Below are positions 6,485 to 59,650 of a stretch of 64,000 nt of DNA, one piece after another. The stretch covers positions 73,842,001-73,906,000 of the forward strand of contig NC_042998.1 in assembly GCF_006345805.1 (NCBI RefSeq). Direction: 5' to 3'. Positions within the stretch are counted from its first letter, which is position 1. The number at the start of each line of letters is the position of its first letter. The translations under genes and the position numbers were made by a program. The DNA comes from Octopus sinensis (taxonomy: Eukaryota). The notes under the pieces are model-generated. The model was not told the origin of the DNA and did not search any database. It saw only the letters and a list, made by a program, of their open reading frames with translations.

Positions 6485-6733
6485 TCGTTTACTCTTTTAC
6501 TTGTTTCAGTAATTTGACTGTAGCCATGCTGGATCACCGCCTTTAGTCGAACAAATCGATCCCAGGACTTTGTAAGTCTAGTACTTATTCTATCGGTGTA
6601 TTTTGCCTAACCGCTAAGTTACGGGGGATATAAACACACCAGCGTCGGTTGTCAAGCGATGTTGGGGAGACAAACGCAGACACACAAACATACACACACA
6701 CATACAGACAGACAGACAGACAGACACACATAC

Positions 6734-6796
<63 letters not shown>

Positions 6797-6968
6797 CATA
6801 TATACAACGGTTTTCTTTCAGTTTCCGCCTACCAAATCCACTCACAAGGCTTTGGTTGTCCCGAGGCTATAGTAGAAGACACTTGCCCAAGGTGTCACGC
6901 AGTGGGACTAAATCCAGAGCCATGTGGTTTGTAAGCAAGCTACATACCACATAGCCACTCCTACGCCT
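6485..6968 (-). mobile_element. tRNA-derived SINE family B with internal microsatellite
   Basis: Head ggcgtaggagtggctatgtggta, CORE-like accttgggcaagtgtcttc, tail gaaacaagtaaaagag; many homologues in the window. Confidence 0.88.
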
Positions 6969-7104
6969 ATGTTTATATATGTGTGTGTATATGTATGTAT
7001 ATGTATGTGTGTGTCATTATTCAGTTTCAATTTTAGATGTATGTGTACATATACATGTATACATATGCATACATATAGATAAGTAGACAGACAGACAGAC
7101 AGAC

Positions 7105-7201: not shown

Positions 7202-7273
7202 TGTTTCTTTATTAGCCACACAGGGCTGCACACAGATAGAACAAATTACAAGGTAGAGCTTTTCTTTTGAAGG

Positions 7274-7314
<41 letters not shown>

Positions 7315-7376
7315 GGAAGGGGGAGGTTCGATCAAAAGGGATCGTAAAAGGAGAGAAAGAGGACAAAAAAAAAGGG

Positions 7377-7411
<35 letters not shown>

Positions 7412-7418
7412 GGAGAGG

Positions 7419-7458
<40 letters not shown>

Positions 7459-9250
7459 ATCAATAGGGATCGTTATCACAGAAATGTCAATATGAAGTGT
7501 AAAGGGGAGGACAGGTGAGGTTTACCCGTGGAAAGAAAAGCCTACGGAAAAGACCACGGTAACCTCGGTCAATGAAGTCACATTTTAATTTCTTTTTTTT
7601 TTTTTTTTTTTTTTTTTTTTGCAAATAAGTAACTCTCTGTTTTCGATTTCTGGGTTCATAGGACTATGCTCAAGGTGGCTTCGTCATTCATACGTGCCAT
7701 TCTTGCAACATTCACCCATCTTTTTTAAAACATTCGCTAGACAAAACTTGCCTCTCTACTCTCACTTTCCTTTTCAAGTGGTACTTGAAGAAGTTGATGA
7801 GAGATTGACCAGAGAGGAAAGTGTTTGTCTCCAATCCTTTCAGACGCGTCCACCAGATACATTCTTTCGCCATAGCCACAAGATGATGAAAATAGCTCTT
7901 CCTTCCCGTTGAAGGAAGGAGGCGTGACAATATTGACGATAGACTCAGCTGATAAACCGACTCGTCCCACACGTGACAGCAGTTGTTCGACATAAGCCCA
8001 CAGGTCGGAAATTGTTGGACACTGAACGAGTGCGTGCAGAACGGTTTCGTCGCTCTGACCGCATCTCGGGCAGGTCGGCCCCGTGTTTCTCGAGCCGTGT
8101 CTGTAGAGCTTATCCCGAACGGGTAGCGCTTCTCGGTAGCACTGCCAGGCCAGGGATCTCTGGAAGTTGTCCATGGGCCCTGGCCCGAAAGTCGTCCCGA
8201 ACAGGCGGGTCAGGTACTCCTCGTCGACGTCCAGGTTCGCCCCGAGCTCGTCGTCGTACCTCCCCTCCACTAAACCCCTATAGAATGCTTTGGTTGTGTT
8301 GAGTCACTTAAGGTCGACCCAGGACGGCAGACTTGCTTGAGAGCAACGCGACACTCGCGGTGCCATTCGCCCTTCCTCGGCCTCTTTTTGATCCACGACT
8401 GCAGTTCGGTCATGGAGACGAGCTGCGGGAAAGCGTGCCTCACAAACGGCGACCACACCTGTTCACCGTCGTCTACATAGAGCCAGAGATGTCGCAGTCT
8501 CAGCGCGTGTCTGCGCATCATCAACCACGGCATGCCCAGCCCTCCTTTTAACGGGTGTTGACAGCAAATGGATCGCCTGACCATCGGGACGCATCCTTTC
8601 CACAAGAAGCGAAAGAGGATGCGTTGTAGTTTGGTGATGGTAGGGTCGGGACAGGTACGACGGTCAGGCGGTAGTAGATGACGGACGCGATGTACGTGTT
8701 CGCCACCTCCGCTCGACCTTTTAGGGACAGTTTCCTCTCGGCCCATTGCCGGGCGAGAGTCACCACCCTACTCGTTATCTCGTTCCAGTTCTTCTCCACT
8801 TGGAGGTCCGGACCAAACCAGACCCCGAGCAACTCAACCGGGCCGTCGGTCCAGCGTCCCACGACGGAGGCGCTGGTGGACGGCATGGGCTTGCTTCTCC
8901 AGGTGCCTAGTCGCAAGCCCACTGACTTTTCCCGGTTGATTTTCGCTCCTGTCACCGCTTCGTAGTTTTTCAGTGTCTCGCCGACCAGCTCGATGTGCTC
9001 GTGGCTAGACACTATGACCGTGACGTCGTCCGCGTATGCAGACACGCTCGTCCCGCATCCCAATTCTCGCGGGATGCCCCTTAGAGTCGCCAGCTTCCGC
9101 AGTAGTAGTGCTCAAGAGTCAATACGTATAGAAGCGCCGAGAGGGGGCATCCCTGACGGACCGAACGTGCAATGTCGAAAGGTCTCGATAGATGTCCATT
9201 TACGCGAATTACCGAACGGATGCCTCTGTACAAGGCAGCTATCCAGCCGC
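7201..9250 (-). mobile_element. 5'-truncated Tx1-clade LINE in a (GATA)n array, copy 1
   Basis: RT motifs RQGCPLS and YADD, C-terminal CPRC..ETVLHALVQC zinc finger, 3' UTR ending AATAAAGAAACAT(ATCT)n; GATA repeats on both sides. Confidence 0.93.
7656..9250 (-). pseudogene. Frameshifted ORF2 fragment (reverse transcriptase and C-terminal zinc finger)
   Basis: ORFs 9081..9374, 8548..9063, 8270..8746, 7737..8270 and 7712..7993 join into a Tx1/L1-type ORF2 C-terminal half. Confidence 0.9.
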
Positions 9251-9297
<47 letters not shown>

Positions 9298-9341
9298 GTA
9301 GATAGATAGACAGAGAGAGAGAGACAGATAGATAGATAGAT

Positions 9342-10422: not shown

Positions 10423-10748
<326 letters not shown>

Positions 10749-14275: not shown

Positions 14276-14461
14276 TTAAGTTTCTGTGGGTGTGTGTATG
14301 TGTACACACACACACTCAAACACACATACGGAATACAAGATTTTGCTCGAGTATAAACGTGGATGCTCCACGCTGGAAGATTAAAATTTTGATCCAATCA
14401 AATAAAATGAAAAAGAATCCTAAGCAAAGGCACAGGAACGCCTTAAACGAAGGAATGGCTT

Positions 14462-14852
14462 AGACGCAGGAGTAGCTGTGTGCTAAGTAGCTTGCTTACC
14501 AACCACATGGTTCCAGGTTCAGTTCCACTGCGTGGCACCTTGAGTAAGTGTCTTCTACTATAGACTCGGGCCGACCAAATCCTTGTAAGTGGATTTGGCA
14601 GACGGAAACTGAAAGAAGCCCGTTGTATGTCTGTGTGCGTATGTGTGTATGTGTGTGTGTGTGCTTGTGTGTCTGTGTTTGCCTTCCCCCATCATCGCTT
14701 GACAACCAATCCTGGTGTTTTTACGTCTCCGTAACTTAACGGTTCGGCAAAAATTATCGAAAGAATAAATACCAAGTCCTGGGGTCAATTTGTTCGACTA
14801 AAGGTGGTGCTCTAGCATGGCCGCAGTCAAATGTCTAAAACAAATTAAAGAG
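14462..14852 (+). mobile_element. SINE family B
   Basis: Full head, core, microsatellite and tail; homologous to 35576-35992. Confidence 0.88.
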
Positions 14853-15179
14853 TATATGCTGAGATATGTTAAGTCTGAGGAACCACTCCTAATATATTGT
14901 AATATATATATATATATTATTCCTAATACTTTCGCAGTTCAAGAACAAACGGATTATGCGCGTGAATGTGGAGTGAATTAATGCAGCGGTGAAGCCACAT
15001 GAGTCAATGTTAGGAATTACATAATAGGAATAATATCTCATGTGATTCATGTAAAATTTCTGTATGATCCATTACATATGATCAGGCACACACGCACACA
15101 TACACAAATATCTGTGTATTTATATATGTACATACATATGTGTGTGTGCATGTGTGTGTGCATGTGTGTATGCATGTGT

Positions 15180-22408: not shown

Positions 22409-22671
22409 CACATCGAAAAAACATTTAAACACAGATTCGTAAAGAAATCGAGATACGCAATCAACCACTCATATACACACACAGAGACATGCAAAGACAT
22501 ATTCATATATGCATACGAACACTCACACATACGCTAGCAATCACGCACACGCACCTATGTACACACTCACAGACAAATGTATTCAAATATATACACATAC
22601 ACAGACAAAAATGCATACATACACACACATATGCGCATATGCACACGCTCACAACCACATAGTTACTCTCG

Positions 22672-23082
22672 GTGACCTGGCAGAATCGTTAGCATGCCGG
22701 GCGAAATGCGTAGCCGTATTTCGTCTGCCGCTACGTTCTGAGTTCAAATTCCGCCAAGGTCGACTTTGCCTTTCATCCTTTCGGGGTTGATAAATTAAGT
22801 ACCAGTTACGCACTGGGGTCGATCTAATCGACTTAATCCCTTTGTCTGTCCTTGTTTGTCCCCTCTTTGCTTATCCCCTTGTGGGTAGTAAAGAAATAGG
22901 TATTTCTTTTGCCGTTACGTTCTGAGTTCAAATTCCGCCGAAGTCGACTTTGCCTTTCATCCTTTCGAGGTCGATAAATTAAGTACCAGTTATGCACTGG
23001 GGTCGATATAATCGACTGAATCCCTTTGTCTGTCCTTGTTTGTCCCCTCTTTGCTTATCCCCTTGTGGGTAGTAAAGAAAGA
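22672..23082 (+). mobile_element. SINE family A dimer (head-body-tail-body-tail) with Tx1-like tail
   Basis: Junction aagaaatag|gtatttc at ~22900; flanking TSD gttactctcg (22662 and 23083). Confidence 0.9.
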
Positions 23083-23534
23083 GGTTACTCTCGCATGTAT
23101 ATATCCATACACGTAAGCACACACAATCACAAATACACGCACTAACACTCATTTATACGCACAACCACACAAATACACACACACACGTGCCTACTCATCC
23201 TCCCACATGTGGTTTTTAAAAATATGTATACTTATTTATGTATGCATATTTTTGTTTGGAAGTAGGTTTTTTGTGTATGCATTAGTGTGTACATATTTAT
23301 ACGTTAAATAAGCATTAATATTCTCGTATGCTCATATACTTACTTACACATACTCGGGAGCACACACGCGAACACACTGACATACATACATACATATATA
23401 CCTATACAGATAATTGAGTGTGTATGTGCATACGCGTATAATTATTTTGGTGTACATACGTATTCGTGCTTGCATGAAAATATGTAACTATTTATGTAGG
23501 GAAAAGCGAATGTATGTGTGTATGCATGGATGTA

Positions 23535-27915: not shown

Positions 27916-27989
27916 AATATTAGGGAATAAATCCAAATTTACAGGGAAAAAATCAGATTTAGGGTTAAATCGATTTTATAGTAAAATAT

Positions 27990-28444
<455 letters not shown>

Positions 28445-28944
28445 ATATATATATATATATATACGACAGGCTTCTTTCAGTTTCTGTCTACCAAATCCAC
28501 TCACAAGGTTTTGGTCGCCCGGAGGTTATAATAGAAGACACTTGCCCAAGGTGCCACGCAGTGGGACTGAATCCAGAACCATGTGGTTGGTAAGCAAGTT
28601 ACTTACCACACAGCCACTGAAACAATTTTTAGAGAAGTATGGTCTGGTATTATTTTTGAGGTTTACTGCCAATTCCGGACAGAGAGACGTCCGACCAGCA
28701 GACTCAGTAGGAGAATTACTGAGAATTGCTAAGAAATAAAATAATTTCTATATGTTTTTCTCTGATAGTCGTGCCATGTTATATTTGCAGATGCTGGTCC
28801 AGGAACAAGAGACAACTTGTATGCAATTCGCCCGCCTATCTGGAACGTACACACGAAGTATGTAGACACAGGAAAGACAAAACATGCTCATCGCAGTAGT
28901 GGCTGTGATGATTACGCTTGTGTGGATGGCTGTATTGGAGTATA

Positions 28945-29179
28945 AGGCGACGAGCTGGTAGAAACGTTAGCACACCGGGCGAAATGCTTAGTGGTATTTC
29001 GTCTGCCGTTACGTTCTGAGTCCAAATTCCGCCGAGGTCGACTTTGCCTTTCATCCTTTCGGGGTGGATTAAATAAGTACCAGTTACGCACTGGGGTTGA
29101 TATAATCGACTTAATCCGTTTGTCTGTCCTTGTTTTTTCCCCTCTGTGTTTAGCCCCATGTGGTTAGTAAAGAAATAGG
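28945..29179 (+). mobile_element. SINE family A monomer with Tx1-like tail
   Basis: Head ggcgacgagctgg, B-box-like gagtccaaattcc, tail gtaaagaaatag; TSD tgtattggagtat on both sides. Confidence 0.9.
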
Positions 29180-29498
29180 TTGTATTGGAGTATGATAGTT
29201 AAGATGTTAATGAGGATGGTGATGATGTTGCTGATGGTGGTGGTGGTGGTGGTGGTGGTGGTAGTGAAAGTAGCTACGAACGTTTAAATCATATTACTGG
29301 CGCTGCTGTTGGTGATGGTATTATGTGGCGTTGCTGAAAATACATAGTACTGGTAGCGGGTATGTTGGTGATGATGCTTGTGGTGAGTGTTAGTAATGGA
29401 GTGGATGATGGCATTGGCTGTAGTTATACTAGAGGTATAATTGGCAGTAGTGGTGTTGACCAATATTTTCATGGTGAGTGTTACTAACGTTGTTGTTG

Positions 29499-34779: not shown

Positions 34780-35575
34780 TATATATATTATATATATGTA
34801 ATATATATACATATATATATATGTATGCATGTATATGCTGTGCTGTTGAATCAAACACGGTTAGACTCAACATGTTGAAGTTACATGAAACATTATTTTG
34901 CCTCGTTATAATGAAGAAGTAAACCCCAGATTACATTGTGCGTGCATATACATGTATAAATAAGAACACACACGCAATATATAAATTATACATTTATATG
35001 CGTGTGTGTGTGACAATGATGTGTGCATGTGTGTATGTGCGTGTATGTGTGAGAGAGAGACAATGATGTATGTGAAAGTGTCTTCAGGATCCGTATGCCA
35101 TTCTAGAATGCAATTACTCGACAATGGCTCATCCTGGATGAAATAGTCACGTCTAAACTTGATGTGAACACATGTCGTTAAGGAATGTGACAATATCTCT
35201 TTCATTGTGATTTGTTTATATTTTTTATCGTTTTATACAATTACATAGAGCAATTTTTCCCTAATCTCTATTCATGGAATAAGGTTTACATTTGAATATA
35301 TTGGTCCAGCAAAGAAAATTATCTCAAGAGTACACATAATGCAACTAAGCTGATCGCTTGTAATAGGAATCTGATTGTCTCTTTCTTATAGAAAACATCT
35401 ACAAGTGCCTGAAAATATATTCTGCTATAAATTTCCTTATATTATCTGTAAAATTATTTGTAATATGGCCGGGCCGGTGTCCTTGCAGGCTATTTATACG
35501 AAAATGTACATTTTAAATATTTACTTCTAAAATGTTTTGTTGGATTAATACATTTTCCATCTTTCCAGGTAGATA

Positions 35576-35746
35576 GGCGCAGGAGTGGCTGTGTGGTAAG
35601 TAGCTTGCTAACCAACCACATGGTTCTGGGTTCAGTCCCACTGCGTGGCATCTTGGGCAAGTGTCTTCTGCTATAGCCCCGGGCCGACCAATGCCTTGTG
35701 AGTGGATTTGGTAGACGGAAACTGAAAGAAGCCTGTCGTATATATG

Positions 35747-35785
<39 letters not shown>

Positions 35786-35992
35786 ATGTGTGTGTGTGTA
35801 TGTTTGTGTGTCTGTGTTTGTCCCCCAAGCATTGCTTCACAACCGATGCTGGTGTGTTTACGTCCCCGTCACTTAGCGGTTCGGCAAAAGAGACCGATAG
35901 AATAAGTACTGGGCTTACAAAAAATAAGTCCCGGGGTCGATTTGCTCGACTAAAAAAAAAAAGGCAGTCAAATGAGTGAAACAAGTAAAAGA
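35576..35992 (+). mobile_element. SINE family B (young, near consensus)
   Basis: ggcgcaggagtggctgtgtggtaag..gggttcagtcccac (A/B boxes), core, (TA)(TG) tract, tail. Confidence 0.9.
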
Positions 35993-36084
35993 GAAAGAGA
36001 AAAGAGAAGAGAGATATTCGGATCCATGATCCATATTTTTATACAACTTAACCAAGACTGGCAACATATTAAACATAATAACGA

Positions 36085-36290
36085 TTTCAAATTTTGACTC
36101 AAGGCCAGCAAGTTTGGAACAGGGTTAATTCGATTATATCGACCCCAATGTTCAATTAGTACTTATTTTATGGACCGCGAAAGGATGAACGGCAAAGTCG
36201 ATCCCGGTGGCATTTGAACTTAGAACAGGACGAAATATCTCTAAGCATTTTGCCCGGCGTGCTAAAGATCCTGCTAGGTCACCAGCTTAC
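36085..36290 (-). mobile_element. SINE family A, old copy with the alternative tail
   Basis: aaggatgaacggcaaagtcgatcccgg body homology. Confidence 0.8.
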
Positions 36291-36496
36291 AATATACTAA
36301 ACATAATCATTTGCCGAATTCTTTAAAATCATTTTCCCAAAATATTAGTTTCGACATTGGTAGAATGAACAGCTGAAAATGAAAACGCATCGTAATTTTA
36401 GATTGCCAGGAACTTGCCTCCGTTTGATATATCTCATGGCTTTCAAGTTAGTGCATGGGCTAGGAAAATCTGTTGATAATAATTATTGCTTCTTAA

Positions 36497-37065
36497 GCGA
36501 CGAGCTGGCAGAATCGTTAGCATAGCGGACAAATTGCTTAGCGGGATTTCGTCTGCCGCTACGTTCTGAGTTCAAATTCCGCCGAGGTCGACTTTGCCTT
36601 TCATCCTTTCGGGGTCGATAAATTAAGTACCAGTTACGCACTGGGGTCGAAATTATCGACTTAATCCGTTTGTCTGTCCTTGATTATCCTCTCTGTGTTT
36701 AGCCCCTTGTGGGTAGTAAAGAAATAGGTATTTCGTCTGCCGCTACGTTTTGAGTTCAAATTCCACCGAGGTCGACTTTGCCTTTCATCCTTTCCGGGTC
36801 GATAAATTAAGTACCAGTTACGCACTGGGGTCAATCGAATCGACTTAATCCGTTTGTCTGTCCTTGTTTGTCCTCTCTGTGTTTAGCCCCTTATGAGTAG
36901 TAAAGAAATAGGTATTTCGTCTGTCTTTATGTTCTGAGTTCAAATTCCGCCGTGGTTAACTTTAGCTTTCCTCCCTTTAGGTGTCTATAAAATAAGTACT
37001 GAAGTTGATGTAGTCGACTCCCCCGCAACCACAAACTTGTTAACTTTGCACCAAAATGTGAAACA
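36497..37065 (+). mobile_element. SINE family A trimer: two Tx1-tailed units followed by an old alternative-tail body
   Basis: Junctions aagaaatag|gtatttcgtctg at ~36728 and ~36912. Confidence 0.9.
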
Positions 37066-37282
37066 TAATTACTGGTTCTAAAAGGCATACGAGCACGCAT
37101 TTTTTGAGAGAAAAGCTGTTATCGGTTATACTGAACCCTGCATTGCACTGGTTCTAAACGATTCTGGAAAAACTACAAGCAATGTTGACTTTGGTGTGAA
37201 TGGAACTTAGAAAGTAATGAGATGTAACAAAATGCTACTCTACTGATTCTGCCAATCAATGCTACTATAATAATAATAATAA

Positions 37283-37494
37283 TCCTTTCTACTAAAGACA
37301 CAAGGCGTGAAATTTGTCGGGAGGAGACTAGCCGATTTCAACGACCCGGGGTTTCACTGGTACTTAATTTATCGACCCCGAACGGATGAAAGGCAAAGTC
37401 GATCTCGGCGGAATTTGAACCCAGACCATAGTGACGGGCAAAATACCGCTAAGCATTACGTCCAGCGTGCTAACGATTCTGCCTGTTCGCCGCC

Positions 37495-37496
<2 letters not shown>
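37283..37496 (-). mobile_element. SINE family A with the alternative tail, next to (AAT)n at 37496-37643
   Basis: Body homology; minus-strand tail gccttgtgtctttagtagaaagg. Confidence 0.85.
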
Positions 37497-37536
<40 letters not shown>

Positions 37537-40522: not shown

Positions 40523-42229
40523 TACTTACACACATACTCTCACACTGTAAGGTAGATTGATTTACATATGAAGTTGGCCATTTTTTAAAGTAGAAATCTA
40601 ATATAGTTATCAATCATTTTTATTACTACTGTTCTTTTCTAGGTCACTCAAGATACGGCTACTTTATCTATAGCAACATTTCATCAGTAGCTACTATATC
40701 TGTAAAATGGCGTCTGAAGCTAACAACCAAAATATCATTGAACAAAATGAGGCTAAACTGTAAAAATTAATGAGTAGTAGATAAGAGTAAGGAGAATATA
40801 TGAGTAAAAATGATTGGGAAAAAAAGAGATGGCCAAGCAGAGACCGAAGGAATTAAATGATAATGAGCGTTTTCTAAGTTCTAAGCTTTAGAAATTCAAA
40901 GATATAAGCTATATAAATACTGGTTGTGATGTTGTGATACTAATTTAGTGCAAGCAAGCTCAAAGCAATGAAATTAATACCTACGTATATCAGTGAGATT
41001 CCTATTTTTGCAGGTATAAATATTCTTTACTTATCAAGTTACAACGGCCATTTTCATAGTTGTTATAATTAAAGTTTAAGGACCTTTTGAATTGGCAGCG
41101 ATCTTATTTACACTTTAATTTCAATAGCTATCCTAAGGGAGAAATATCAAGATGTATATAGAATATTTATGTTTGCTCAATAGTAATTTCACTAAGGTAT
41201 TAATTTCCTTCTACAAACTTATTTTCGCTAAATTTGCATTGCATATCGCATCAAGTGTATAGACACCCATACATACATACATGCATGCATACATACATAC
41301 ATACATATATACATACATACATACATACATACATGCATACATACACACACATACACATACATACATACATACATTCATGCATATATGCATACATACATAC
41401 ATACATACATACATACATACATACATAAATACATACATATATACGTACATATATACAAAGATTCATACATAGGCATACTTGCATACATACATACACACTC
41501 ACACGCACACATCCACACACTAACACACACAAACATACACACTTGCACGCACAAACACACATACAAACACACACACACACACAAAAACACACACTCATAC
41601 GTGGATATATCTGTAGGGCTATGTCTATGTTTGCATACATGCGATTGTAAACATATGTGCGTTATAAATACATTTCAACAGCAGGATAGCTGACAGAAGA
41701 TGATATTTGTCAGGTGGATAATTTGATATTTCATTGTAAATAAATTTATCAATCAATCTTTTTGTCAGCCTGTCCAGCAATCTAATTGTGAATGTATCTT
41801 CCCAGATATCTTTTAATCAATCTATTTTTCTATTAATCAATCTATCATTTAATCTACGCATGCGGTTGCCGATTTTCCAACACATACAATGTATGTATAC
41901 AAAGTATGTATGTATGTAAATATGTGTGTATGTTTGTATGTACGTGAGTACGTACATATGTGTGTATATGTGTGTGCGTGTTTGTACAGTAAAAAAAAGG
42001 TTGAGCACACAAACAACCAGTGTTAGTTCAGAGTACAGGATTTATATATTTAAACCTAATTGCTGGGTTGTTACAATAAAAATGGTATTTACCATTATCC
42101 ATATGACAATAAAAATGGTATTTACCATTATCCATATGGTCTTCGTCACACCTAGCCAGCGAACTTCCTCTTTCCTATTCAGTTTTAGCTTTCCACATTC
42201 CTTTATATATATATATATATATATATATA

Positions 42230-42628
42230 TGAGTGGCTGTGTGGTAAGTGGGTTGCTTACGAACCACATGGTTCCGGGTTCAGTCTCACTGCGTGGCACC
42301 TTAGGCAAGTGTCTTCTACTATAGCCTCGGGCCGACCAAATCTTTGTGAGTGGATTTGGTAGGCGGAAACTGAAAGGAACCCGTCGTATATCTTTATATA
42401 TATATATGTATGTGTGTATATGTCTGTGTGTCTGTGTTTGTCCCCCCCCCCACATCGCTTGACAACCGATGCTGGTGTGTTTACGCCCCCGTAACTTAGC
42501 GGTTCGGCAAAAGAGAACGATAGAATAAGTACTAAGCATACAGAGAATAAGTCCTGGGGTCAGTTTGCTCGACTAAAGGTGGTGCTCCAGCATGGCCACA
42601 GTCACGGGACTGAAACAAGTAAAAGAGT
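42230..42628 (+). mobile_element. SINE family B
   Basis: Full-length homology to family B. Confidence 0.9.
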
Positions 42629-42782
42629 ATATATGTACACACATAATATACATATATATATATATATGTATTATGTATGTATGTATGTATGTGTATGTAT
42701 GTATGTATGTATGTATGTATGTATGTATGTATACATATACATATATTACCTTACCTTGTCTGGTAAAAGCATATTACATACA

Positions 42783-43398: not shown

Positions 43399-44653
43399 CG
43401 AGGGGCGTTCAATAAGTAATGCCCCTGACCCACTTTCCATAGTAGTAGAGCAACGAAACTTGGCACAGTTATTAGTCTTTTTCTACATATGAACCACCCA
43501 GAGTTACGCATTTCTGCCATTGCTTGATGCAGCTCTGGAGACCGTTTTTGTAGAAGACCCCAGCTTGGTCCTCCAACCTGAACGTGACTTCAGAAATCAA
43601 GGCTGCATCATCTGGGAAACGCTTTCCTTTCAAAAACAACTTCATGACTGGGAAGAGGTGAAAATCAGAGGGTGCAAGGTCAGGAAAGTAGGGGGATGGG
43701 GGAGGAGTTCATAGCCATACGCCTGTGCTTCTGATCTGGCGACAAGCGAGTTGTGGACCGGAGCGTTGTCCTGCAGGAGGAGGATACCTTTGCTGATCTT
43801 GCCCCGCCTCTTGATTTTGATAACTTCTCTTAATTTCCTCAAAAGTGAAGCATAATAGGCTCCTGCAATTGTGGTACCCTTTGCCAGGAAATCTGTCATC
43901 ACTACTCCGTCCTGGTCCCAGAAGACTGTGAGCATGACCTTGCCAGCGGAGGGCTGCACCCTTGCCTTCTTTGGAGGGGGTGAGTCACGGTGCTTCCACT
44001 GCATTGACTGGGCTTTGGTCTCTGGATCATCGTGATGGACCCAGGTTTCATCCTGTGTAATCAGTCTTTTGAAAAATTTTGACTCATCTTCTTGGCACAT
44101 CTCCAAATTCACCCTCGAGCACTCGACGTGTTCTTGCTTCTGGAAAGGCGTGAGCAGCCTGGGAATCCATCTGGCAGACACCTTTTGCATATGCAAATGG
44201 TCATGAATGATAGTTTCCACAGATCCGGTACTAATCTTGGCCTCATGGGCTATTTGGCGAATAATTATGCGTCGATCTTCCAAAATGGCAGCCTCAACTT
44301 GACGGACAGATGCCTCATCAATGGCAGAAGGGGCGACCAGATCTGGGAGCTGTTTCCACAGAGTTCAGACCATGTTTGAATTCACGATGCCAGCGTTTTA
44401 CAAGGTCATATGATGGGGCATCATCACCATAAGTTACTTTCATTTCATCAAAAGTCTCCCGTGGTGTGCGTCCTTTCAAATACAAAAACCGGATCACTGC
44501 TCGACACTCAACAGGCTCCATTTCACACTTGACTCGATTCAAACACCAATTTGCCACTTACTCTATAGAGAAATCAATAATTGCACATGCAAAATTTCAG
44601 CTAGATCAAACAACTACAAGTGGGTCAGTGGCATTACTTATTGAACGTCCCTC

Positions 44654-46510: not shown

Positions 46511-47289
46511 ACTATTTTTTTACTTACTCTAACATCATAGTCAAGGTAGGGATAAATATATGACTGAATATGTGAATAAAATTAGAGATGAACAGAAAAT
46601 AACAGAACAAAATAAGACAGTAAAATGTCATATTCATGAATATTTTAATAGGTGATGATCAAAGCGTGTGTGTGTGCATCTATGATTATGAGGTTCTGTT
46701 CAGTGAGTATGGAAGTGTTGCAGAGTGATGATTTGAGGCGAGGTATTTATTTTTCTTTTGCATATCTCTAGACACGCACACACGCATACACACACACAAA
46801 CATACAGACACACACACACACATATATATATTGTTTACAAATAAACATATGCATGTGAATCCATGCATGTATGTTTACACACATATGTGTGTGTGTTAAC
46901 TTACAAATTTGTACGTACGTGTGCAAGTCCAATATATGCGTGTGTGTGTGTGTGTGTGTGTGAGGGGGGGGGTGTACTTCCTTACACATATACACACATG
47001 CACGCACGCACGGCACGCTCACACACAAACATTATTTTGTCGAAATTCCCCGCAGTGTCGAAGTAATAAGTTCCTGAAAATCTTGCACTAACGCAAAACT
47101 TCGTAACGCGAAATTAATTTTACCATTGTTTTTCATACTATAAAGTGAGAAGGCGTGCACAGAAGGACGTCTTTCGAAAACAACAAACAAACTACTCGAT
47201 CGCTTTAGTCATGGAAACTACAATTTCTAAACATATATAGTTGACCGTGCGTGTGCGTGTGTGAGTATATGCGTGTGTGAGTATATGTA

Positions 47290-47457
47290 TTTCACTACTG
47301 CCCACAAGGGGCTAAACACAGAGGGGACAAACGGATTATGTCGATTACATCGACCTCAGGGCGTAACTGGTACTTAATTTATCGACCCCGAAAGGATGAA
47401 AGGCAAAGTCGACCTCGGCGGAATTTGAACTCAGAACGTAACGGCAGACGAAATACG
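47290..47457 (-). mobile_element. Body and tail of the host SINE A, interrupted by the Tx1 LINE (head at 52802-52860)
   Basis: The two halves join into a complete SINE once the LINE and one TSD copy are removed. Confidence 0.92.
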
Positions 47458-47702
47458 AATTTCTTTATTGCCCACCGGGGGCCAAACATAGATATGGACA
47501 GTACAACTGATGGGATCAGTGAATCGATATGATTTTACATAAATGTGACATCAAAAATAAAATACAATACATAAAAATCGAATGGAATACACAGTACAAA
47601 AACAATACAAATGAAGCGATGATCAAGTTACGCTCCGATCCCACAAGCCCCGATCTACCGCTGATACCTTTTTATTTTTCCTTTTTTTTTTTTTTTCCTC
47701 GT

Positions 47703-50700
47703 CTATTCACACGGTTCCTTGCACGCACACACTCGTGCAACATACTTCCATCTCTTTTGGAACGTACACTCTGACAGACACCTCTTCTCCAGCCACAGTT
47801 TCCTTTTCAAATGAAAAGAAAAAAAGGATCGTAAATTGTCACCAGAGATAAAGTTGCCTGTCTTAATTCCTTTTATCCTAGAATTCCATACAGCCTCTTT
47901 TGCTATTGCTACAACCGTGAGAAAACAATTCTTACCTTCGTTCGTTAGAACTCCCGGTGGGTCAATTTTATAATTGACTCAGTCGACAGCCGTACTCTTC
48001 CTTCGCCGGACAACAGATGTTCAGCATAAGCCCACATTTCAGTTATCTCCGGACACTGAACAATAGCGTGAGGGACGGTTTCCCTGTCCCCACCGCATCT
48101 TGGACAGGTCGGCGACTGACGTTTACCATGTCTTGCGAGCTTATCCCAAACGGGCAAGGCACCTCTGTAGCATTGCCAGGTTAAGGACTTTTGGAAGTTG
48201 TCCAACGTTCTCAACCCGAATGTACGATGAAACAAGCTGTCCAGTTGAAAAATCCGAGACCTAGAGTCGACCCCAGGCCATCGTCGCATTCAGACTCTAC
48301 CAACCCACTATATAAAATCCGTGTGGAACCCCCACCGCTGGCGTTGCCCGAGCGCCGGAACAGCAAGAGGGCCTTACGGCACTCTTTATGCCACTCACTC
48401 GACCTCGGTCTACGAGAACACCAGGCTTCCTGTTCGCAAAAACTCTTGAACTCAGGGAACATTTGTCTGGCCAGCGGAGACCACACCCGTTCACTATCCA
48501 GGAGAATCCAGAGGTGCCTCAACCTCAACGCATGTCTGCGCATCATTAACCAAGGCATCCCTAAACCTCCATTTAAAGGCTTTTGACAGCAGACAGAGCG
48601 TTTCACAAGTGGCGACCTGCCCTCCACAAAAAGCGAAAGAGCTGTCTCTCCAACCTGATCACCACGAATCCGGACAGGGCACGACAGTCAGGCGGTAGGT
48701 AATGACCGATGCGATAAACACATTGGCCACTTCCGCCCTCCCTTTCAGGGATAGCCACCGCCAAGACCAAGTCTTGACTACTGCAGCCACCCTGCTCAAT
48801 ACCTCCGTCCAGTTCTTCTCTATCTGGAGGCCTGGTCCAAACCAGACTCCCAGCAACTTAACCGGTCCCTCCGTCCAGCGCCTAACAACACTGTCTGAAG
48901 GCATCGACTTGCCAACTCAGGTGCCGAGCTGCAAGCCGACCGACTTTTCCCGGTTAATCTTTGCTCCTGCTACCTCCTCGTAAGCCTCAATAGTCTTACC
49001 TACTTCACGTAGGCGTACCACTGTGGTTACACTGATAGTGATATCATCCGCGAAAGCCGTAACAAACTCCTCTAGTCCTGGTTCTCTCGGGATGCCACTC
49101 AACCTTTGCAGTAATGGCTCGAGAGCCATCACATACAAAAGTGGTGAAAGCGGACATCCTTGACGAACCGAGCGTCTGATGCAGAACGGCTTCGAAAGGA
49201 AACCGTTCACCCGAACTATCGAGTCAATGTTGTGGTACAAAGCGATAAACCACCTGAGGAAGCCAAGGCCCAGGCCAAACCGCAAGTACAGTCGCTAGGT
49301 ATCGATGGTCAACCCTATCAAAAGCTTTAGACTGGTCCAAATGCACCAATGCCCCACCTTTGCCAGATTTATTACCAAACCTCTCTATGGTATAGCGAAT
49401 AAGATGGAGGGTATCCTGAATGGTTCTGCCTGGGATGGCACATGTCTGTGCCTCCCCGACTATACCATTCGCGACACGCGCCAACCTTTTTGCTAGAACC
49501 TTGGCCAAAATCTTCACTTCTGCGTTTAACAGAGTGATGGCCTGAATTCTCTAGAACGTCCCCCTTGTCCGGGTCCTTTCTGACCAACGTCACTACTCCC
49601 CGGCGCACAGATCTGGGGATAAACCCATTCTGTTTCCAGTTCGCGTACACGTCAGTCAGTAGTTGCCCGAACAAGTCTGGCATACATTTATACAGCTCGT
49701 ACGGAAGACCATCAAGTCCCGGTGACTTACCCGCTTTACAATCGGCCAAAGCCTCCATCACCTCCTCAAGTGTGATTGGCCCTTCGCAAGACTCCGCATC
49801 CGACCCCGAGAGGCACGGCAGCCCGTAAGAAAGTCCTCGAGGGCTCTCCCACCACCAGGACCCCGCCGTCACCCCCGAACAGCTGGGCGAAGTACTCCCG
49901 AAAGACCTCACACATTTTCTCGGGTTCGTTTATCAAGACACCATTTTGATTCGTCAAAGACCGAATAGAGGAACTATTTCCTTGCCGAGCTTCCACCACT
50001 CGGGCCCATCCAGCGGCTTTGATTCCTTCACTTCCCATTGCACGTAACTTAGCTCTGGTAATACTTCCCATGTGGTGGCTTCAAGATGCTGGTTTAACTC
50101 CAGTCTTTTCACCCTCGCTTGGTCTGTATTACCAGTCCTCCAGGCTTCTTCTAGTTCCTTAACTAGACCATCTCCTATTTTACGTCCCTTCTTAGCTAAA
50201 CTTATGCTAAACCTAATAGACTCATATTTGATGGCTCTTTTTAGGGCGTACCACCATTTGTTATATGATGGTACCTGTTAATGCCCTCTGTATTAACATC
50301 TTGATCCGCTTTCTGTACTCCTCAATCGCCAAAAGGACGTATTGAGTTTCCAGTAGCCAGATCCTGTCTATGCAACTTATCTACCGTCAGTTTACAGGTA
50401 ACCATCTTGTGGTCACTGTAGCTGACTAGAAAAAACTGTGGACACTCAACTATGGACTTATCTTTTTCTCTAATTAAAATCCTATCTAGATATGTTCTGG
50501 TAGACCCGTCACTATTTGACCACGTCCACTGTGGAGTGTTCGGGTGCTCCAACCTATATGGATCTGCTAGCTGAAATTGACTTAGCAGATCCCGAAAGCC
50601 TGTGTTACATTTTCTGTTCATGTTCGAGTTTGAGCCACACAATCTGTGTGTGCTGCACATATTGTATTAGAGTCTCCTAACACTACTAGTGAATGCGACG

Positions 50701-51098
50701 TGGCTAGGAACTTTCCTAGGCCACGAAAATATTCAGTTTGCGGGCCAATAATGTTTGGTGCATAAATAGCGACCAGCCTGATTGTCTTGCCACAACTGAA
50801 TGTCAAGTCGAGAACGACCAGCCTGCCTTCTGGGTCAGAAAAAACCAACTTTTTCTCGGCTACCCGGTTTCTTTTTAGTAGGACCAACACCCCACACCCC
50901 ACCTCCCGCCCGACTCGGAGAAACGTATTTCTCGTAGCCGTTCAGGAGGGGGAGCAGATCTCTTGGCCCCTTCACCCGGGTTTCCGTTGCAACAATTACA
51001 TCCAAATTTCTCGACCTGATGTCATTCAGAAAGCGTCCTTGCTTCCAGCTTGACAACAGGCCATGAACATTTAAACAACCAATGTGAATAGCCATCAC
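47703..51098 (-). pseudogene. ORF2: APE endonuclease, reverse transcriptase and zinc finger (several frameshifts)
   Basis: GCLNVHGL, ATET, AIYAPN, LGDSN, YLDRIL, SDH; KSPGLDGLP, DQSKAFDRVDH, RQGCPLSP, FADD; CPRC..ETVPHAIVQC. Confidence 0.94.
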
Positions 51099-51106
51099 TT
51101 ACCTGT

Positions 51107-52284
51107 TTAATTAGGATTGTCCGGTGGAGGGGGACCCTCCACCTTTTTTTTATCCAGGGTCGGAGGTGGACGGTCTTGGGAAATAGATTTGTCAAAATCC
51201 CGTCTCACCACCGACACAGAATTATCAGGTGGAGGGGGAATCTCCACCTTTTCCTTTTCTCGCGGGATCGGAGCTGGTAATCCATGAAATATCGACTTGT
51301 TAAAATCTAATCTCAATGAAGATACAGTCTTTCTGTACTTATTTTGTAGAATTCTATAAGTCTTATTTGAGACTTCATATATATGTCGTAATTGATAAAT
51401 TCCTCTGAAAGGTTATCAATTTTTTTTACAGTCTTTATGAGTTGAATGTCTCTCATGAGCTCAGTATCTTTAGTGTATACGGCTATTATGCCTTTTTCTT
51501 CTTTTTCTCTTCTGGCAGTCTTTTTTGGTCGTTGTTCTGTAGTAGTCGCCGCTCTCGGCTGGGTTGCTGGTTGTATTTTTCTTTTGTTTGTTGTTTTTTT
51601 CTCATCTGTTTCTTCTTTATCTTCTTCCTCTTTGTCTTTTTTCTCCTCTTCCTCCTCTTCTTCATTTTCCTTGCAGTTCCTTCGAATGTGGCCTAATTGA
51701 CCACATAAAAAACATCGAGGTTTTCGGCCCTCAACAAACACCACGAGGTTCTCCTCCCCTACCTCAATTGTCTCAGGAATTGTTTGAATTATTTTAGGGT
51801 CCGCTTGAATGAGAAGATTAATTGTTTTACCATCCCAGCGTGGGTTTTCCGTAGCGGTAGCCTGGAGGAGAGTAATTTTTTCTACCTCTTTGATTAGGAC
51901 TGCCGCCAACAACCACATACGTTCGACCTCTGGCGGGACCCTTGTAATTTTTATTCGCGACGTCCTCATCCCCATATAATAGGGTATTAACTCCACGTCG
52001 TTCGTTTTCAACGTTTCCACTGAGTTCTTGTGTGCTATTTCTTTATGGTGAACCTTACTTCCACCGTTCCGAATTTTTTTCCTCTTCTCAGAAATACTAC
52101 GTCGCCCAATATTGGCTTTAAGCACTTTTCTATTTCTCTCTGACATTCTTTCAATTTTTCTATTTTGTAGACAATCATATGTTTTGAAAATTATTGTTTT
52201 TTGCTTTTCTTCCTGTAATAACTTTTGCGGAGGTTCAATTTTCACACTGTTGTCATTTATTTCCATCATTTTGCTGTATTTCAT
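51107..52284 (-). pseudogene. ORF1: gag-like nucleic-acid-binding protein with a CCHC knuckle
   Basis: VEGRKPRCFLCGQLGHIRRNC followed by an acidic tract; continues by frameshift into 51107..51316; ends 8 nt before ORF2. Confidence 0.88.
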
Positions 52285-52952
52285 AATTTCGCTTTTATTC
52301 GTCGACAGTATCTGGTTCCACCCCCAGCAGCCAACGCAAAACTTTTTTTTCCATTTTTTGGTTCTATCTGGATGCTAGGCACATCAATTATTCTCTTCGA
52401 CACAATGCCTTTGTCTCTGGCAAAGTCGGAAACTCTTCTGGTGAAAGTTCTGACGAGCTCTCAGACACATCTCCAAAAATATCAAATATATTATCCTCTC
52501 TGCTATTCCTTCTTGTAGCGGGGGAAACCCCTATTTCCTTGTCTGTAGTTGGCTCCTCGCCGCCATGTATTTCCTCCTCTCAACAGGAGAAACAAGTATT
52601 TCTGCTCCAACGGTAGGCTCCATGCTAGACGACATTCTTCCCCCCAAAGGGGGAATGAACAACGCGTGCTACCACAAGCACTAAGTGTTTTCAATTGAAA
52701 ACTCCAACAGTTAAGTTATTCAACAGTTTAACAAGAAACAACAGTTGTTAACAGTATTAACACCACGAAACAGCAATTCTTACTTCACGAACACATGTGC
52801 AGCAGACGAAATACGGCTACGCATTTCGCCCGGCGTGCTAACGAGTCTGCCAGCTCGCCGCGTGTGTGAGTATATGCGTGTGTGAGTATATGCGTGTGTG
52901 AGTATATGCGTGTGTGAGTATATGCGTGTGTGAGTGTGTATGTGTGCGTATA

Positions 52953-54379: not shown

Positions 54380-54714
54380 AGAGTACGCAACTGGTACATA
54401 ATTTTTCGACTTCGAAAGGATGAAAGTCAAAGTCGACCTCGGCGGAATTTGAACTCAGAACGTAACAGCAGACGAAATACCTATTTCTTTACTACCCACA
54501 AGGGGCTAAACACAGAGGGGACAAACAAGGACAGACAAACGGATTAGGTCGATTAGATCGATCCCAGTGCGTAACTGGTACTTAATTTATCGACCCCGAA
54601 AGGATGAAAGGCAAAGTCGACTTCGGCGGAATTTGAACTCATAATGTAGCGGCAGACGAAATATCGCTAAGCATTTCACCCGGCGCGCTGACGCTTCTGC
54701 CAGCTCGCCACCTT
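54380..54714 (-). mobile_element. SINE family A dimer (Tx1-tailed unit joined to an alternative-subtype body)
   Basis: Junction gcagacgaaatac|ctatttctttac at 54468-54492. Confidence 0.9.
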
Positions 54715-55049
54715 ATGAATATATGTATAACGTTAAGCGAATAGACTAAAAATAAATTAACATATTAACATTAATATAAAATGCATTATGTCTTTCCTGA
54801 AATAAACATGTAGTAAAGAAAATAGCGTTCGTATTTTCACATCAACAAGATACAAAAATATATTTTATAGAAGTATAACTTATATACACTCGTGACTGAC
54901 TTTAAAAAAAATACATAGTGGATATTATAAATTCAAAATATCAATATCAATTCAAGAAAAAGTTTTTCGGGGATCGATTTCATGCTTATGTTTTGCTTCA
55001 CATTAGCGATATCGCTTTGGTGTCCTTGTAGTGGTGTGTGTGTGTGTGT

Positions 55050-56329: not shown

Positions 56330-59300
56330 TATCGAGTTTGAATGGTATCTTAAATCTGGGAAGCTAGATGTGAACGAAAAAATGGATCTGTTTCTATTAA
56401 ATCTTGGGTCACAATGATGCAATAGAGTGGTTTAGAATTACAAAAGAGGAGGATGAAGATAGCATAACATACAATTCAAGAGCAAAAAATCCATTACCTC
56501 CAAATTCACTAGCAGTAAAATACACTTATGGAAGGAATAACACATTATTCATCGAGGCTTTGACAACTTTCTAGTATCTTAATCAGTTCTTTCAATTTTA
56601 TAGAACAGGCAATTAAAGATACAATTACCAAGAACTCAACAAGGAAGCCTTTCGAAAGACAATTTCTTCGCCTGCCTCATAAACCTATAGAAAAAAAACT
56701 CTTTAAGTTGCAGAATGCTGTTTTTATAGCTCATGTGAGTCTACTATAATTGTCATGGATAGTACTCCCACGAGTGGCCATTACTGCTGTTGGAGAAACA
56801 GCTTCAGTTCAAGATAAAATTTCAGTGAGAAGTGATTAAAAACCATCCGAGAATTTAAATAAAAACCAGTTGCTGATAAATTACATCAAAATTGTAAGAT
56901 GATTGAATACTTTACTAAACGTCCCAGAAAATTTTTTGAAAAGACAAGCCGAAAACAATAGTATCAGCAGCACCAAACTCATGAATAATATTGAGGAAAC
57001 TTTTTGTTACTGTATTTTGGAATAATCAACGAATGCTTATTGATAATGGCAGAATTGTCTTTGATTCGTAAACACATTTCAAAAAGCTTGGTACTAAATT
57101 GTATCCACATCATCTGAAAACGTACTATCTGTTGACAGAATCAAGCTTTAATATTATTAGAAGAATAATTCCGAAAAGCTGCTGATGAGGAAGAGTATTT
57201 TTTTGTTTTCTACAGAATATCTGGAAACCCCCATCTTTATCGCATTTCCAATTACTTCAGATTAAATTTAAAAGTTAACTTCCGTCTTGATTGTGTCTGT
57301 TGCACGCGTTGATCTAAAATAATTGCATAATTGACAAACCGTCAAAATTTCGAATAATCAGAGTCGCGCAATTTCTGCGTAACAATACCCATATATTGCT
57401 CTTCTCAGCATCGCCCTTTTGGAGATAGCGAATTTATTAAAGTTTAAACTAATAAACTTCTGACTCAGGGAATAATTATATCTTCAAAGTCATCATGGCA
57501 CTCACAAGTTGTTGTAACTACAAAAGGTAATGGCCAAAGACGTTTAGTAGTGGACTACGCATCTATTAGTAATAGATACATACTGCTAGTTGCATTTCAT
57601 ACCTCATTCATTAGCGATTTTTTAAAGCCAAATTCCTGGAAATAATAATTATCAAGTGTCTTGCGTTCCCGAGAGCAACATTTTACAACCTTTGAAGCAA
57701 ATAATGAATTACTGCAATGTTTGCGCGATTGCCTCTTGGTGTTACTAATGGAATACCAATTTTTTGTAGAATAATGAAAGTATTAATGACGTAGTTCATA
57801 CTTTGATCATGCGGTAGAGGGAAAAGAAACGAGAAGTTTAATGCCATGAATTTGCTAACTTTTCTCAAACATTCCCTAGAGTCAGATCTTTGACTCGACT
57901 CTAAAATAATGAAAATTTAGTGTAACAGTTATTGTTTCAGAAACATATTTTTAGAGAAGACAAGATGGGGCTGGACCATGACTGACAATGGCCTCTATTT
58001 GGGTTTCCTCTGCTTGGAAATTCCGAGATCCTTGAGAATTTTTTACTGGGTTAAATGTGTATTATTCAAAGGAGATAAAAAGTTGTTTTACTGAAATTGC
58101 AGTACACTTCTTTGAAGCTGCATGATTTTGAATTTTCCTTTACTGATGCAAAATAAGAAAGACAACGCTGCTGTGCCTTCGTTATCTATTCCAACACCTG
58201 GTTCACTACTTACTTTTGAAACAGACACAAGAGTTGCTGATGAAGCAAAATAACAACCAGTATACTTATATCCACTTAAACTGAATTATATTTTAAAGAA
58301 ATGGCCAAATGGAGATTTAGAAATCTACAGTATTCAGATGAGTTGAAAAAACGTGACATTGCCAATTAACACAAAAATTCTTACTTGTTACAGATCAACA
58401 AGCAATAACTTTCCTATTTGATAGCCGACCTAAATGTGTTCGCAGCTCTTAGAGTTCTCGTATGAAATACAATACTGTCTGGGAAAAGAGAATTTTGCAG
58501 CAAATACCGTAAGTTTGATGCTAAGTGATAAGCAAAGAGATATAATAAAAGAATAGGACACCCTGCCTTAGATAGACAAATTTTTAATATGAAAAGATTC
58601 AATTATAATATCCTATTAAAAGAAACACAGAGATAAAATTAAATAAAGCGATGTGTGAAAGATTGAATAAAATTTCATTTAGTGAAAATGACATCTGGCC
58701 AAAATATTCTATTAACAAAGCCTCGGCAGCGAATGTCACTTGATATTGTGGAACGAACAGCAATTACTAAAATGAGCGACTCTCGCATTTTGACAGTACT
58801 TGATGAGTTTATGCATTGTTCTTTCTATCTGCATGAAACAAAGCAAGTTCTCAAACTATTATTCAAATCTTCTCCTTTATTAGCCACTTTGTTCAGTACT
58901 CCAAGCTTTGTTCACGGTGGCCGTGGCATTCAATCTCAAAGCACTGGATTTCTGTATTATTTAACTAATTAGAATATTCATAAGATTGGAACAGATCCTT
59001 ACCCTCCTTCGTCAAATGCGGGTGGAGAATGAATGATACAAAGGACACGGTGGAAAACTACTCAGTTACATCTCATACAAACAAGCTGATAAAAAGAATT
59101 TAACAAAGAACTCACGCAAATATTAATTAATTCATTGCTTGTAAAACCTTTAAACATACAATTACCTCGCGGCATGATGTTTAACTCTGCACGTAATACT
59201 ATACTGGGAAAAGGTGGTGAGCTAGCAAAAATGTTATCACGCCGGGCGAAATGCTTAGCGGTATTTAGTCTGTGTTTACGTTCTGAGTTCAAATTCCGCC

Positions 59301-59650
59301 GAGGTCGACTTTGCCTTTCATCCTTTCGGGTGTCGATAAATTAAGTACAAGTTGCATACTGGGGTCGTTCTAATCGACTGGCCCCCTCCCCATAAATTTC
59401 GGGCCTTGTGCCTAGAGCAGAAACGAATACTATACTGGAAAATCCAGATGATTTTTATCTTTAATTCTCCGACATTTTGAAAATCAGTTATGGGTTTTTT
59501 TTCCAGAGAAAATCAGTATACCTTTACAAAAAAATGTCTGACTACCAGAATATAAGTGCTTACTGATAGAGGTGCCCTTTTTCTACTATATCCTAATTCA
59601 GTCTACAGCAGGGAAGTATGTGATAAAGTTTCATGAAACCGAAAATCTCT
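56330..59650 (+). mobile_element. Highly decayed Ty3/Gypsy LTR-retrotransposon internal region (gag-RT-RNaseH-integrase)
   Basis: RT-like SSWHSQVVVTTKGNGQRRLVVDY (~57490) and PLGVTNG..F.RIM (~57730); RNaseH-like FTLTFETD (~58200); integrase-like KPRQRMSLD..LTVLDEF..FSTPSFVHGGRG (58682..58972). Domain order is Gypsy-type; LTRs not recognised. Confidence 0.75.
59213..59428 (+). mobile_element. SINE family A monomer (alternative tail) inserted in the Gypsy relic
   Basis: TSD aatactatactgg(g/a)aaa on both sides. Confidence 0.9.

What the first reader, a model, noticed from the sequence alone, without database searches (positions are those of the whole stretch)
28945..29179. SINE A subfamily carries a Tx1-like 3' tail with a conserved stem-loop
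Seen: the SINE tail TGTCCCCTCTGTGTTTAGCCCCTTGTGGGTAGTAAAGAAAT (consensus of the window copies) aligns with the 3' end of the full-length LINE (TGTCCATATCTATGTTTGGCCCCCGGTGGGCAATAAAGAAAT). It also aligns with the GATA LINE end (TGTCCCATCTGTGTGCAGCCCTGTGTGGCCAATAAAGAAAC). All keep a GCC(C)-loop-(G)GGY hairpin just before A(A/G)TAAAGAAA. Other SINE A copies (59213, 54248, 37283) have the same body but an unrelated tail. Established: SINEs borrow the 3' tail of their partner LINE. Inference: a tail swap moved this SINE onto Tx1 machinery, a rarely documented partnership. This monomer has an ordinary TSD, so targeting is not absolute.
Basis: partly seen in the sequence, partly recalled or inferred. 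Interest (0 to 1): 0.75.

Follow-up and report, generated by a model that had tools for sequence, protein, structure and literature searches.

The report
SINE wearing an L1/Tx1-group LINE tail
The youngest form of a very abundant short jumping repeat (SINE) in this animal genome, likely an octopus's, ends in the same short tail as a whole group of L1/Tx1-type LINE retrotransposons and likely borrows their copying enzymes, while one young LINE of that group inserts at one fixed spot inside the SINE itself.

Summary
Confirmed, with corrections. The SINE at 28944-29177 has a ~57-nt tail that matches the 3' ends of all eight L1/Tx1-like families compared (0 of 2000 shuffles each). The two older tails of the same SINE are unrelated. 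The best match is an ORF1-only, half-LINE family (score 78), not the window's full-length LINE (46), which is also too young (99.3% identity between copies) to have spread most copies. The tailed form is the youngest (6% divergence against 16%), so the swap was towards this tail. The hairpin is only 4 bp and folds no better than shuffles, but three of its pairs show two-sided changes between families. The TSD is 16 bp and starts with GG, as is usual for this sub-lineage. The window's LINE sits at one base of the SINE head in 29 of 30 copies. SINE chains join at that base 35,298 times, but their junction base does not come from the target, so plain self-insertion is not enough. Tx1-clade membership and trans-mobilisation are untested. 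This scan's AI notes already reported the system on other DNA of this genome (8 notes).

The parts
28944..29177 (+). SINE monomer with the LINE-like ('T') tail; sub-lineage T1 by its junction
28928..28943 (+). left copy of the 16-bp target-site duplication
29178..29193 (+). right copy of the TSD (one mismatch; starts GG)
28993..29007 (+). site 47-61 of the SINE head: the landing site of the young LINE and the joint of SINE chains (empty in this copy)
29121..29177 (+). tail homologous to L1/Tx1-group 3' ends; closest to the ORF1-only family f013
29150..29167 (+). predicted hairpin of the tail (slipped 6-bp register in this copy; 4-bp stem with 5-nt loop in most copies)
47458..52800 (-). full-length LINE ('S47'): zinc-knuckle ORF1 and APE-RT-zf ORF2, broken by frameshifts in this copy; inserted at SINE position 47
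   Evidence: intact relative L134
52801..52861 (-). 5' part (head) of the SINE copy that the LINE interrupts
47288..47457 (-). 3' part of the interrupted SINE copy (T tail), starting at position 47
22671..23085 (+). SINE dimer: head plus two 184-bp T-tailed units that share private variants
36497..36999 (+). SINE chain: two T-tailed units and a degraded third
54382..54716 (-). T-tailed unit joined at position 47 to a partial second unit
7204..9341 (-). 5'-truncated GATA-repeat-targeting LINE copy with the related 3' end (further ends at 9345 and 15267)
59211..59430 (+). same SINE body with the older, unrelated 'A' tail (also 54247-54377 + and 37276-37497 -)
36085..36296 (-). same SINE body with the older 'B' tail

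Best explanation
The youngest subfamily of this tRNA-like SINE carries a 3' tail homologous to the ends of the genome's L1/Tx1-group retrotransposons, and likely uses it, with its weak predicted hairpin, to be copied by the enzymes of several of those LINE families. Shown: the homology, the youth of the tailed form, 10-24-bp TSDs, the link between SINE sub-lineage and landing motif, and the site-specific insertion of the young S47 LINE into the SINE head. Inferred: (1) the tail was gained by a template switch from an element close to the ORF1-only family f013 or its autonomous parent, which was not found. (2) ORF2p of the group recognises the tail. (3) Source copies that once landed inside another SINE head (at position 47 or about 16) are transcribed a few bases, or whole units, past the tail. 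Their RNA then ends in a short tag that steers priming to GGTAT-like or AGAA-like sites, or is copied as a whole chain; some chains were later lengthened by local duplication. (4) The SINE thereby multiplies the landing sites of the S47 lineage.
For: Tail against eight family ends: 0 of 2000 shuffles each; A and B tails 718 and 1474 of 2000. In a 1-Mb evenly spaced sample, the 4 T-tail hits at E<0.01 not behind a SINE are all L1/Tx1-group ends. Body divergence 0.061 (T, n=76) against 0.164 (A, n=30) and 0.157 (B, n=36). TSDs in 22 of 40 T-ended elements against 14 of 786 mismatched flank pairs; the S47 duplication is about 15 bp. Stem pairs change on both sides between families; 30 of 32 cells pair, 2 of 20000 shuffles (register fitted by hand). 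S47 is followed by SINE position 47 in 29 of 30 copies. 25 of 76 T tails but 0 of 67 A/B tails are followed by position 47. Stem variant T goes with GGTAT in 32 of 42, variant C in 2 of 30, P=2e-9. The base after the tail is never C in 57 SINE junctions, although 22 of 86 heads and 12 of 28 LINE junctions have C. Single TSDs enclose whole 2-4-unit chains in 5 of 24 T-ended elements with a TSD.
Against: No functional test. The hairpin folds no better than shuffles, and covariation on the automatic alignment is not significant (102 of 500). No autonomous family with the best-matching tail was found. S47 is too young to be the main partner. Only 2-3 of 24 TSD-bearing elements show tag letters missing from the left flank, so direct evidence for an RNA tag is thin. 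The sub-lineage link could also reflect different partner LINEs. 7 of 19 adjacent unit pairs are closer than 98% of random pairs, so DNA-level duplication made some chains. The partner of the A and B tails was not found, so a swap between LINE clades is not shown. Only part of the genome's LINE families was sampled.
Confidence: 0.68

Rival explanations
1. One partner: the window's SINE-targeting LINE (S47 lineage) gave the tail and mobilises the SINE; its endonuclease alone places SINE units at position 47 by true nested insertion.
For: Same landing base for LINE and SINE; the SINE stem arms match S47's; similar TSD length; a few T units precede an A- or B-tailed unit (3 of 25).
Against: Five other family ends match the tail better than S47 does. 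S47 copies are 99.3% alike, SINE units 6.9% from their majority. SINE junctions never show the C allele that the LINE junctions show. Most T ends lie outside SINEs.
Confidence: 0.15
2. The tail is a passive relic of one chimeric event; the SINE is copied by relaxed recognition, and the chains are mostly DNA-level tandem duplications seeded by one nested copy.
For: Weak folding; near-identical neighbours in some chains; a uniform junction base.
Against: The tailed form alone expanded recently. It ends at the same point as the LINEs, with no poly(A). Monomers outside any SINE still start their TSD with the lineage's motif. 12 of 19 neighbours are not among the closest 2% of pairs.
Confidence: 0.12
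3. The tail is shared because the LINE group or the ORF1-only elements took it from the SINE, or because T-rich hairpin/AATAAA ends converge.
For: The motif is short and contains a poly(A)-signal-like hexamer; dinucleotide shuffles do not control for that.
Against: A 21-nt exact match with f013 upstream of the hairpin. The LINE families that share the end are far more diverged from each other (ORF2 about 50-70% identical) than the SINE copies are.
Confidence: 0.05

Closest known systems
Stringent SINE/LINE pairs with a shared 3' tail; L1-clade cases ZmSINE2/3 with LINE1-1_ZM and SINEX-3_CR with L1-1_CR (Ohshima, PMC3747384: passages and Table 1; PMC3472496: passages)
   Same: tRNA-type SINE ending in a LINE-derived 3' end with a stem-loop that shows compensatory changes
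   Different: Those papers list 58 pairs, only three with L1-clade tails, all in plants or algae; no Tx1 partner stands in Table 1. Here the host is an animal, there is no poly(A), and the tail is shared with many families of different target preference.
SINEU with Tx1-Mar in crocodilians (Kojima 2015, PMC4494074: parts 1-4 of 5 read)
   Same: SINE and Tx1-type LINE share an insertion target; tandem SINE insertions; LINEs with SINE-like 5' ends; transcription from the flanking target proposed
   Different: SINEU has snRNA heads and poly(A) tails, and no LINE with a matching 3' end was found; the target is a Mariner transposon. Here the tail is shared and the target is the SINE itself.
HAL1 (half-L1), ORF1-only derivatives of L1 (PMC5753468: passages)
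   Same: f013, f079 and f260 keep a zinc-knuckle ORF1 followed by the 3' end, with no ORF2 in between
   Different: HAL1 is mammalian; here such elements carry a structured tail and are the closest relatives of a SINE tail
Tail exchange in SINE superfamilies (MetaSINEs, PMC4824008: passages; bivalve HCD-SINEs, PMC11481361: passages)
   Same: one head and body with several alternative tails, ascribed to template switching
   Different: partners named there include CR1, L2 and Nimb; the word Tx1 occurs 0 times in either main text
Alu-in-Alu insertion hotspot (Levy et al., PMC2836564: abstract only)
   Same: a SINE accumulates at one base inside other copies of itself
   Different: Alu uses relaxed poly(A) recognition by L1, and L1 itself is not specific for that site (own knowledge)

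Membership tests
L1/Tx1 group of non-LTR retrotransposons (the LINEs) | two ORFs; ORF2 with APE endonuclease, RT and C-terminal zinc domain | tested here: met
   intact copy L134: ORF1 509 aa, ORF2 1133 aa; Pfam Exo_endo_phos (E 2e-10), RVT_1 (E 4e-29), zf-RVT (E 2e-7)
L1/Tx1 group of non-LTR retrotransposons (the LINEs) | ORF2 closer to L1 than to other clades | tested here: met
   human L1 ORF2p E 2e-64 over residues 5-867 against R2 E 2e-20; only L1 and R2 full proteins were among the hits, so other clades were not compared
Tx1 clade in the narrow sense | RT groups with named Tx1 elements (Tx1L, Keno, Kibi, Koshi) | not testable with these tools
   no named Tx1 sequence was available; homologues carried no useful names; the tree has unnamed outgroups and is largely unresolved
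Tx1 clade in the narrow sense | target-sequence preference | tested here: met
   S47 at SINE position 47 in 29 of 30; GATA families nearly always followed by that repeat; family f154 shows no SINE target in 20 loci
Tx1 clade in the narrow sense | ORF1 with CCHC zinc knuckle, no Transposase_22 | tested here: met
   zf-CCHC above cut-off, no Transposase_22 hit; PMC5203782 passage calls such ORF1s in non-mammalian animals consistent with Tx1
Stringent SINE/LINE pair | SINE 3' end homologous to LINE 3' end | tested here: met
Stringent SINE/LINE pair | conserved stem-loop with compensatory changes | tested here: inconclusive
   RNAalifold predicts the 4-bp stem; automatic alignment not significant; significant after manual register shift; no energy signal
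Stringent SINE/LINE pair | tail needed for mobilisation by the LINE protein | not testable with these tools
   needs a retrotransposition assay
tRNA-derived SINE (SINE2) | tRNA-derived head with A and B boxes, Pol III transcription | tested here: inconclusive
   a B-box-like motif and complementary 5'/3' ends of the head are visible in the sequence; ARAGORN and Rfam give no tRNA hit; transcription not tested
Published octopus SINEs OK/OR1/OR2 (CORE-SINE) | sequence identity with the published consensus and CORE domain | not tested
HAL1-like ORF1-only element (f013) | ORF1 followed by the 3' end without ORF2 | tested here: met
   zinc-knuckle ORF upstream of the end; no ORF2 hit in 20 loci; 11 of 25 ORF1 loci show a related end about 0.7-1.3 kb on, none with ORF2 between; 5' ends not fetched

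The most novel reading that the evidence does not exclude
A closed host-parasite loop: an animal tRNA-SINE took a structured tail that a whole radiation of Tx1-type LINEs recognises, some of these LINEs evolved to land in the SINE's own promoter region, and nested SINE copies hand down short RNA tags that program where their descendants insert, so that target choice is inherited in cis by the passenger RNA.
Probability: 0.35. Interest if true: 0.8.

Novelty: new variant of a known kind. Interest (0 to 1): 0.6.

Why it matters
In the surveys read, L1-clade LINEs almost never share a 3' tail with a SINE, and the three known cases are in plants and algae (PMC3747384, PMC3472496). An animal case with near-identical LINE copies that still hold intact ORFs (L126, L134) makes it testable whether L1/Tx1 enzymes recognise their RNA by a specific 3' structure, which bears on whether mammalian poly(A) recognition is a derived state. 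It also offers a natural system in which a LINE lands inside the passenger it likely multiplies, and in which a few RNA bases may steer insertion. The subfamily is large: 76 units in 1 Mb, about 200,000 genome-wide by extrapolation.

Tried and rejected
Window LINE as the tail donor: rejected, other families score higher. T tail derived from the A tail by mutation (they look alike by eye): rejected, 718 of 2000 shuffles. 'Extra GGT' between tail and TSD in this copy: rejected, a 16-bp TSD with one mismatch explains it. Search for an element with the f013 upstream stretch and the SINE stem: 0 matches (one exact gapped pattern, no proof of absence). Search for the LINE partner of the B tail: 18 of 19 further loci were behind a SINE body and the 19th behind a partial SINE head. 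Sampling other autonomous families with a distant homologue returned only GATA-targeting families in the 30 loci fetched. Naming the clade through databases gave nothing. Folding energy as evidence for the hairpin: none. Expression: no RNA holder listed. Rfam and ARAGORN: no hit. No structure prediction or complex job was run, as none bears on the question.

Full report
Observation. The window lies in a 2.72-Gb animal genome, likely an octopus's; that reading rests on repeat content and earlier notes of the scan, not on a test. A SINE occupies 28944-29177 (+), between two copies of a 16-bp duplication with one mismatch. Its tail aligns with the window's full-length LINE end (score 40) and two GATA-LINE ends (51, 51); 0 of 2000 dinucleotide shuffles reach these scores. 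The tails of the copies at 59213, 54248, 37283 and 36265 do not align significantly.

Three tails on one body. I fetched 100 evenly spaced 10-kb stretches. Of 193 body hits, 179 had a usable 3' flank: 76 had this tail (T), 31 tail A, 36 tail B and 36 none of these. A and B are related to each other but not to T. Body divergence from the class majority is 0.061 for T, 0.164 for A and 0.157 for B, while the class majorities differ at only 4-6 of 90 sites. T is therefore the recent form, which fits a swap towards this tail.

Where the tail comes from. Searches turned up eight families with a related end: the window's LINE (S47), two GATA-repeat-targeting types, an autonomous family f154, a single copy f162, and three ORF1-only families f013, f079 and f260. 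The typical T tail scores 78 with f013 (21 identical bases in a row), 65 with f079, 64 with f154, 54 with f260, 52 with GATA, 46 with S47, 45 with GATA2 and 40 with f162. Each is reached by 0 of 2000 shuffles and by at most 0.02% of 19,726 random windows. A tail profile run over the 1-Mb sample gave 88 hits, 10 of them not behind a SINE; the 4 with E<0.01 are all ends of this group. None lay behind the distant RT hits in nine loci, but I did not check that those copies' 3' ends were inside the stretches, so the non-Tx1 control is partial. No autonomous element with the f013 tail was found.

The LINEs. An intact S47 copy encodes a 509-aa zinc-knuckle ORF1 and an 1133-aa APE-RT-zinc ORF2, closest to human L1 ORF2p among solved structures. 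That places it in the L1/Tx1 group. Site preference and the ORF1 type fit Tx1, but no named Tx1 sequence was at hand for a tree.

The hairpin. RNAalifold predicts a 4-bp stem. Single ends fold no better than shuffles, and the automatic alignment gives no significant covariation (102 of 500), partly because some families have a 6-nt loop. With the register set per family, three of four pairs change on both sides, and 30 of 32 cells in 8 distinct arm pairs are paired, 2 of 20000 shuffles. That count is fitted to the structure and ignores relatedness, so it is suggestive only.

The LINE lands in the SINE. The window's LINE interrupts a SINE copy. Of the 30 best genomic copies of its 3' end, 29 are followed by SINE position 47; the 30th by a similar pentamer. 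All 20 copies fetched further are full length and begin behind a SINE head. The 15 bases before the LINE stay close to the consensus site even where the 3' copy differs, so they likely come from the LINE RNA; the first base agrees on both sides in 18 of 19 on-target copies after allowing for one shifted copy, and 17 of 18 are not in doubt (one search shows agreement in all 18 unshifted on-target copies). Contigs of two of four independent public runs bridge the LINE-SINE junction with at least 31 letters a side. Copies are 99.3% alike (they were selected by likeness to the window copy), against 6.9% divergence of SINE units, so this family is too young for most SINE copies. None was in the 1-Mb sample.

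Where the SINE lands. 25 of 76 T tails but 0 of 67 A/B tails are followed by SINE position 47, and 5 by position about 16. The genome holds 35,298 exact SINE-type junctions and 564 LINE-type ones, some of the latter being SINE variants. TSDs were found for 22 of 40 T-ended elements with a head (control 14 of 786). One stem base predicts the landing motif: variant T goes with GGTAT in 32 of 42, variant C with AGAA in 19 and TAT in 6 of 30; 4 of 76 units could not be typed. Both GGTAT and AGAA occur in the SINE's own head. The finding's TSD starts with GG.

How chains form. Plain nested insertion predicts that the base after the tail comes from the target. Heads have C there in 22 of 86 and LINE junctions in 12 of 28, but SINE junctions in 0 of 57 (loci L001-L030 left out because their query was biased). 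Single TSDs enclose whole chains in 5 of 24 elements. 7 of 19 neighbouring units are closer than 98% of random pairs, the rest are not. The best reading is that source copies nested in a SINE head are read through, giving tagged or multi-unit RNAs, with later local duplication. This step is inferred; direct traces of tag letters are few (2-3 of 24), and the C allele may partly be younger than the chains.

Literature. Nine searches of the open library showed no paper on an animal SINE with a Tx1-type tail, or on this octopus system. Ohshima lists three L1-clade tail pairs, in plants and algae. SINEU and Tx1-Mar share a target but no tail. A 2026 repeat annotation of Octopus vulgaris counts 13 recently active L1-Tx1 families and a SINE expansion at distance 0.065, and its passages mention no pairing (PMC13282606); its supplements were not read. 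Repbase, Dfam and subscription papers, including the 1994 octopus SINE paper, could not be searched.

Earlier notes. Eight AI notes of this scan describe the same system on other DNA of this genome. They are unchecked and are not counted as support; the read-through and RNA-tag reading is taken over from two of them and was tested here in part.

Verdict. New variant of a known kind; interest 0.6.

Noticed in passing
L139 (G000:C8:57065100-57072100): The one S47 LINE copy whose 3' flank is not SINE still has a whole SINE head at its 5' end and no TSD; the LINE RNA may sometimes start in the SINE head, or the locus was rearranged.
   Followed up: partly
L121-L140: All 20 fetched S47 copies are full length, unusual for a LINE; homology to the target at the 5' end may favour complete insertions.
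   Followed up: partly
L201-L220, L260, L263, L264: Further ORF1-only (HAL1-like) families with the same kind of 3' end; f260 has a different stem with two compensated pairs.
   Followed up: partly
L190, L197: Two of 19 f013 copies are followed by SINE head sequence (position 47 and near 16), a loose version of the same preference.
   Followed up: no
window 7204-10429 and 15267; L266-L325: GATA-microsatellite-targeting LINEs are very abundant (25,493 first-look candidates); T-tailed SINE copies that land at TAT motifs may use their enzyme.
   Followed up: partly
window 43642-44364 (-): Mariner-type transposase fragment (Pfam Transposase_1, E 7e-24).
   Followed up: no
window 6489-6970, 14461-14854, 35573-35996, 42204-42629 and others: A second abundant short repeat with an internal microsatellite, more than eight copies in the window.
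   Followed up: no
window 1632-2175 and 27977-28340: Long near-perfect inverted repeats (266 nt at 96%, 181 nt at 97%) with almost no spacer.
   Followed up: no
window 60503-62464: A roughly 900-bp tandem duplication at 94% identity.
   Followed up: no
L057, L058, L082, L162: A- and B-tailed SINE copies often stand head to tail as full-length units in TTA-rich stretches, a different pattern from the T chains; their partner LINE was not found.
   Followed up: partly
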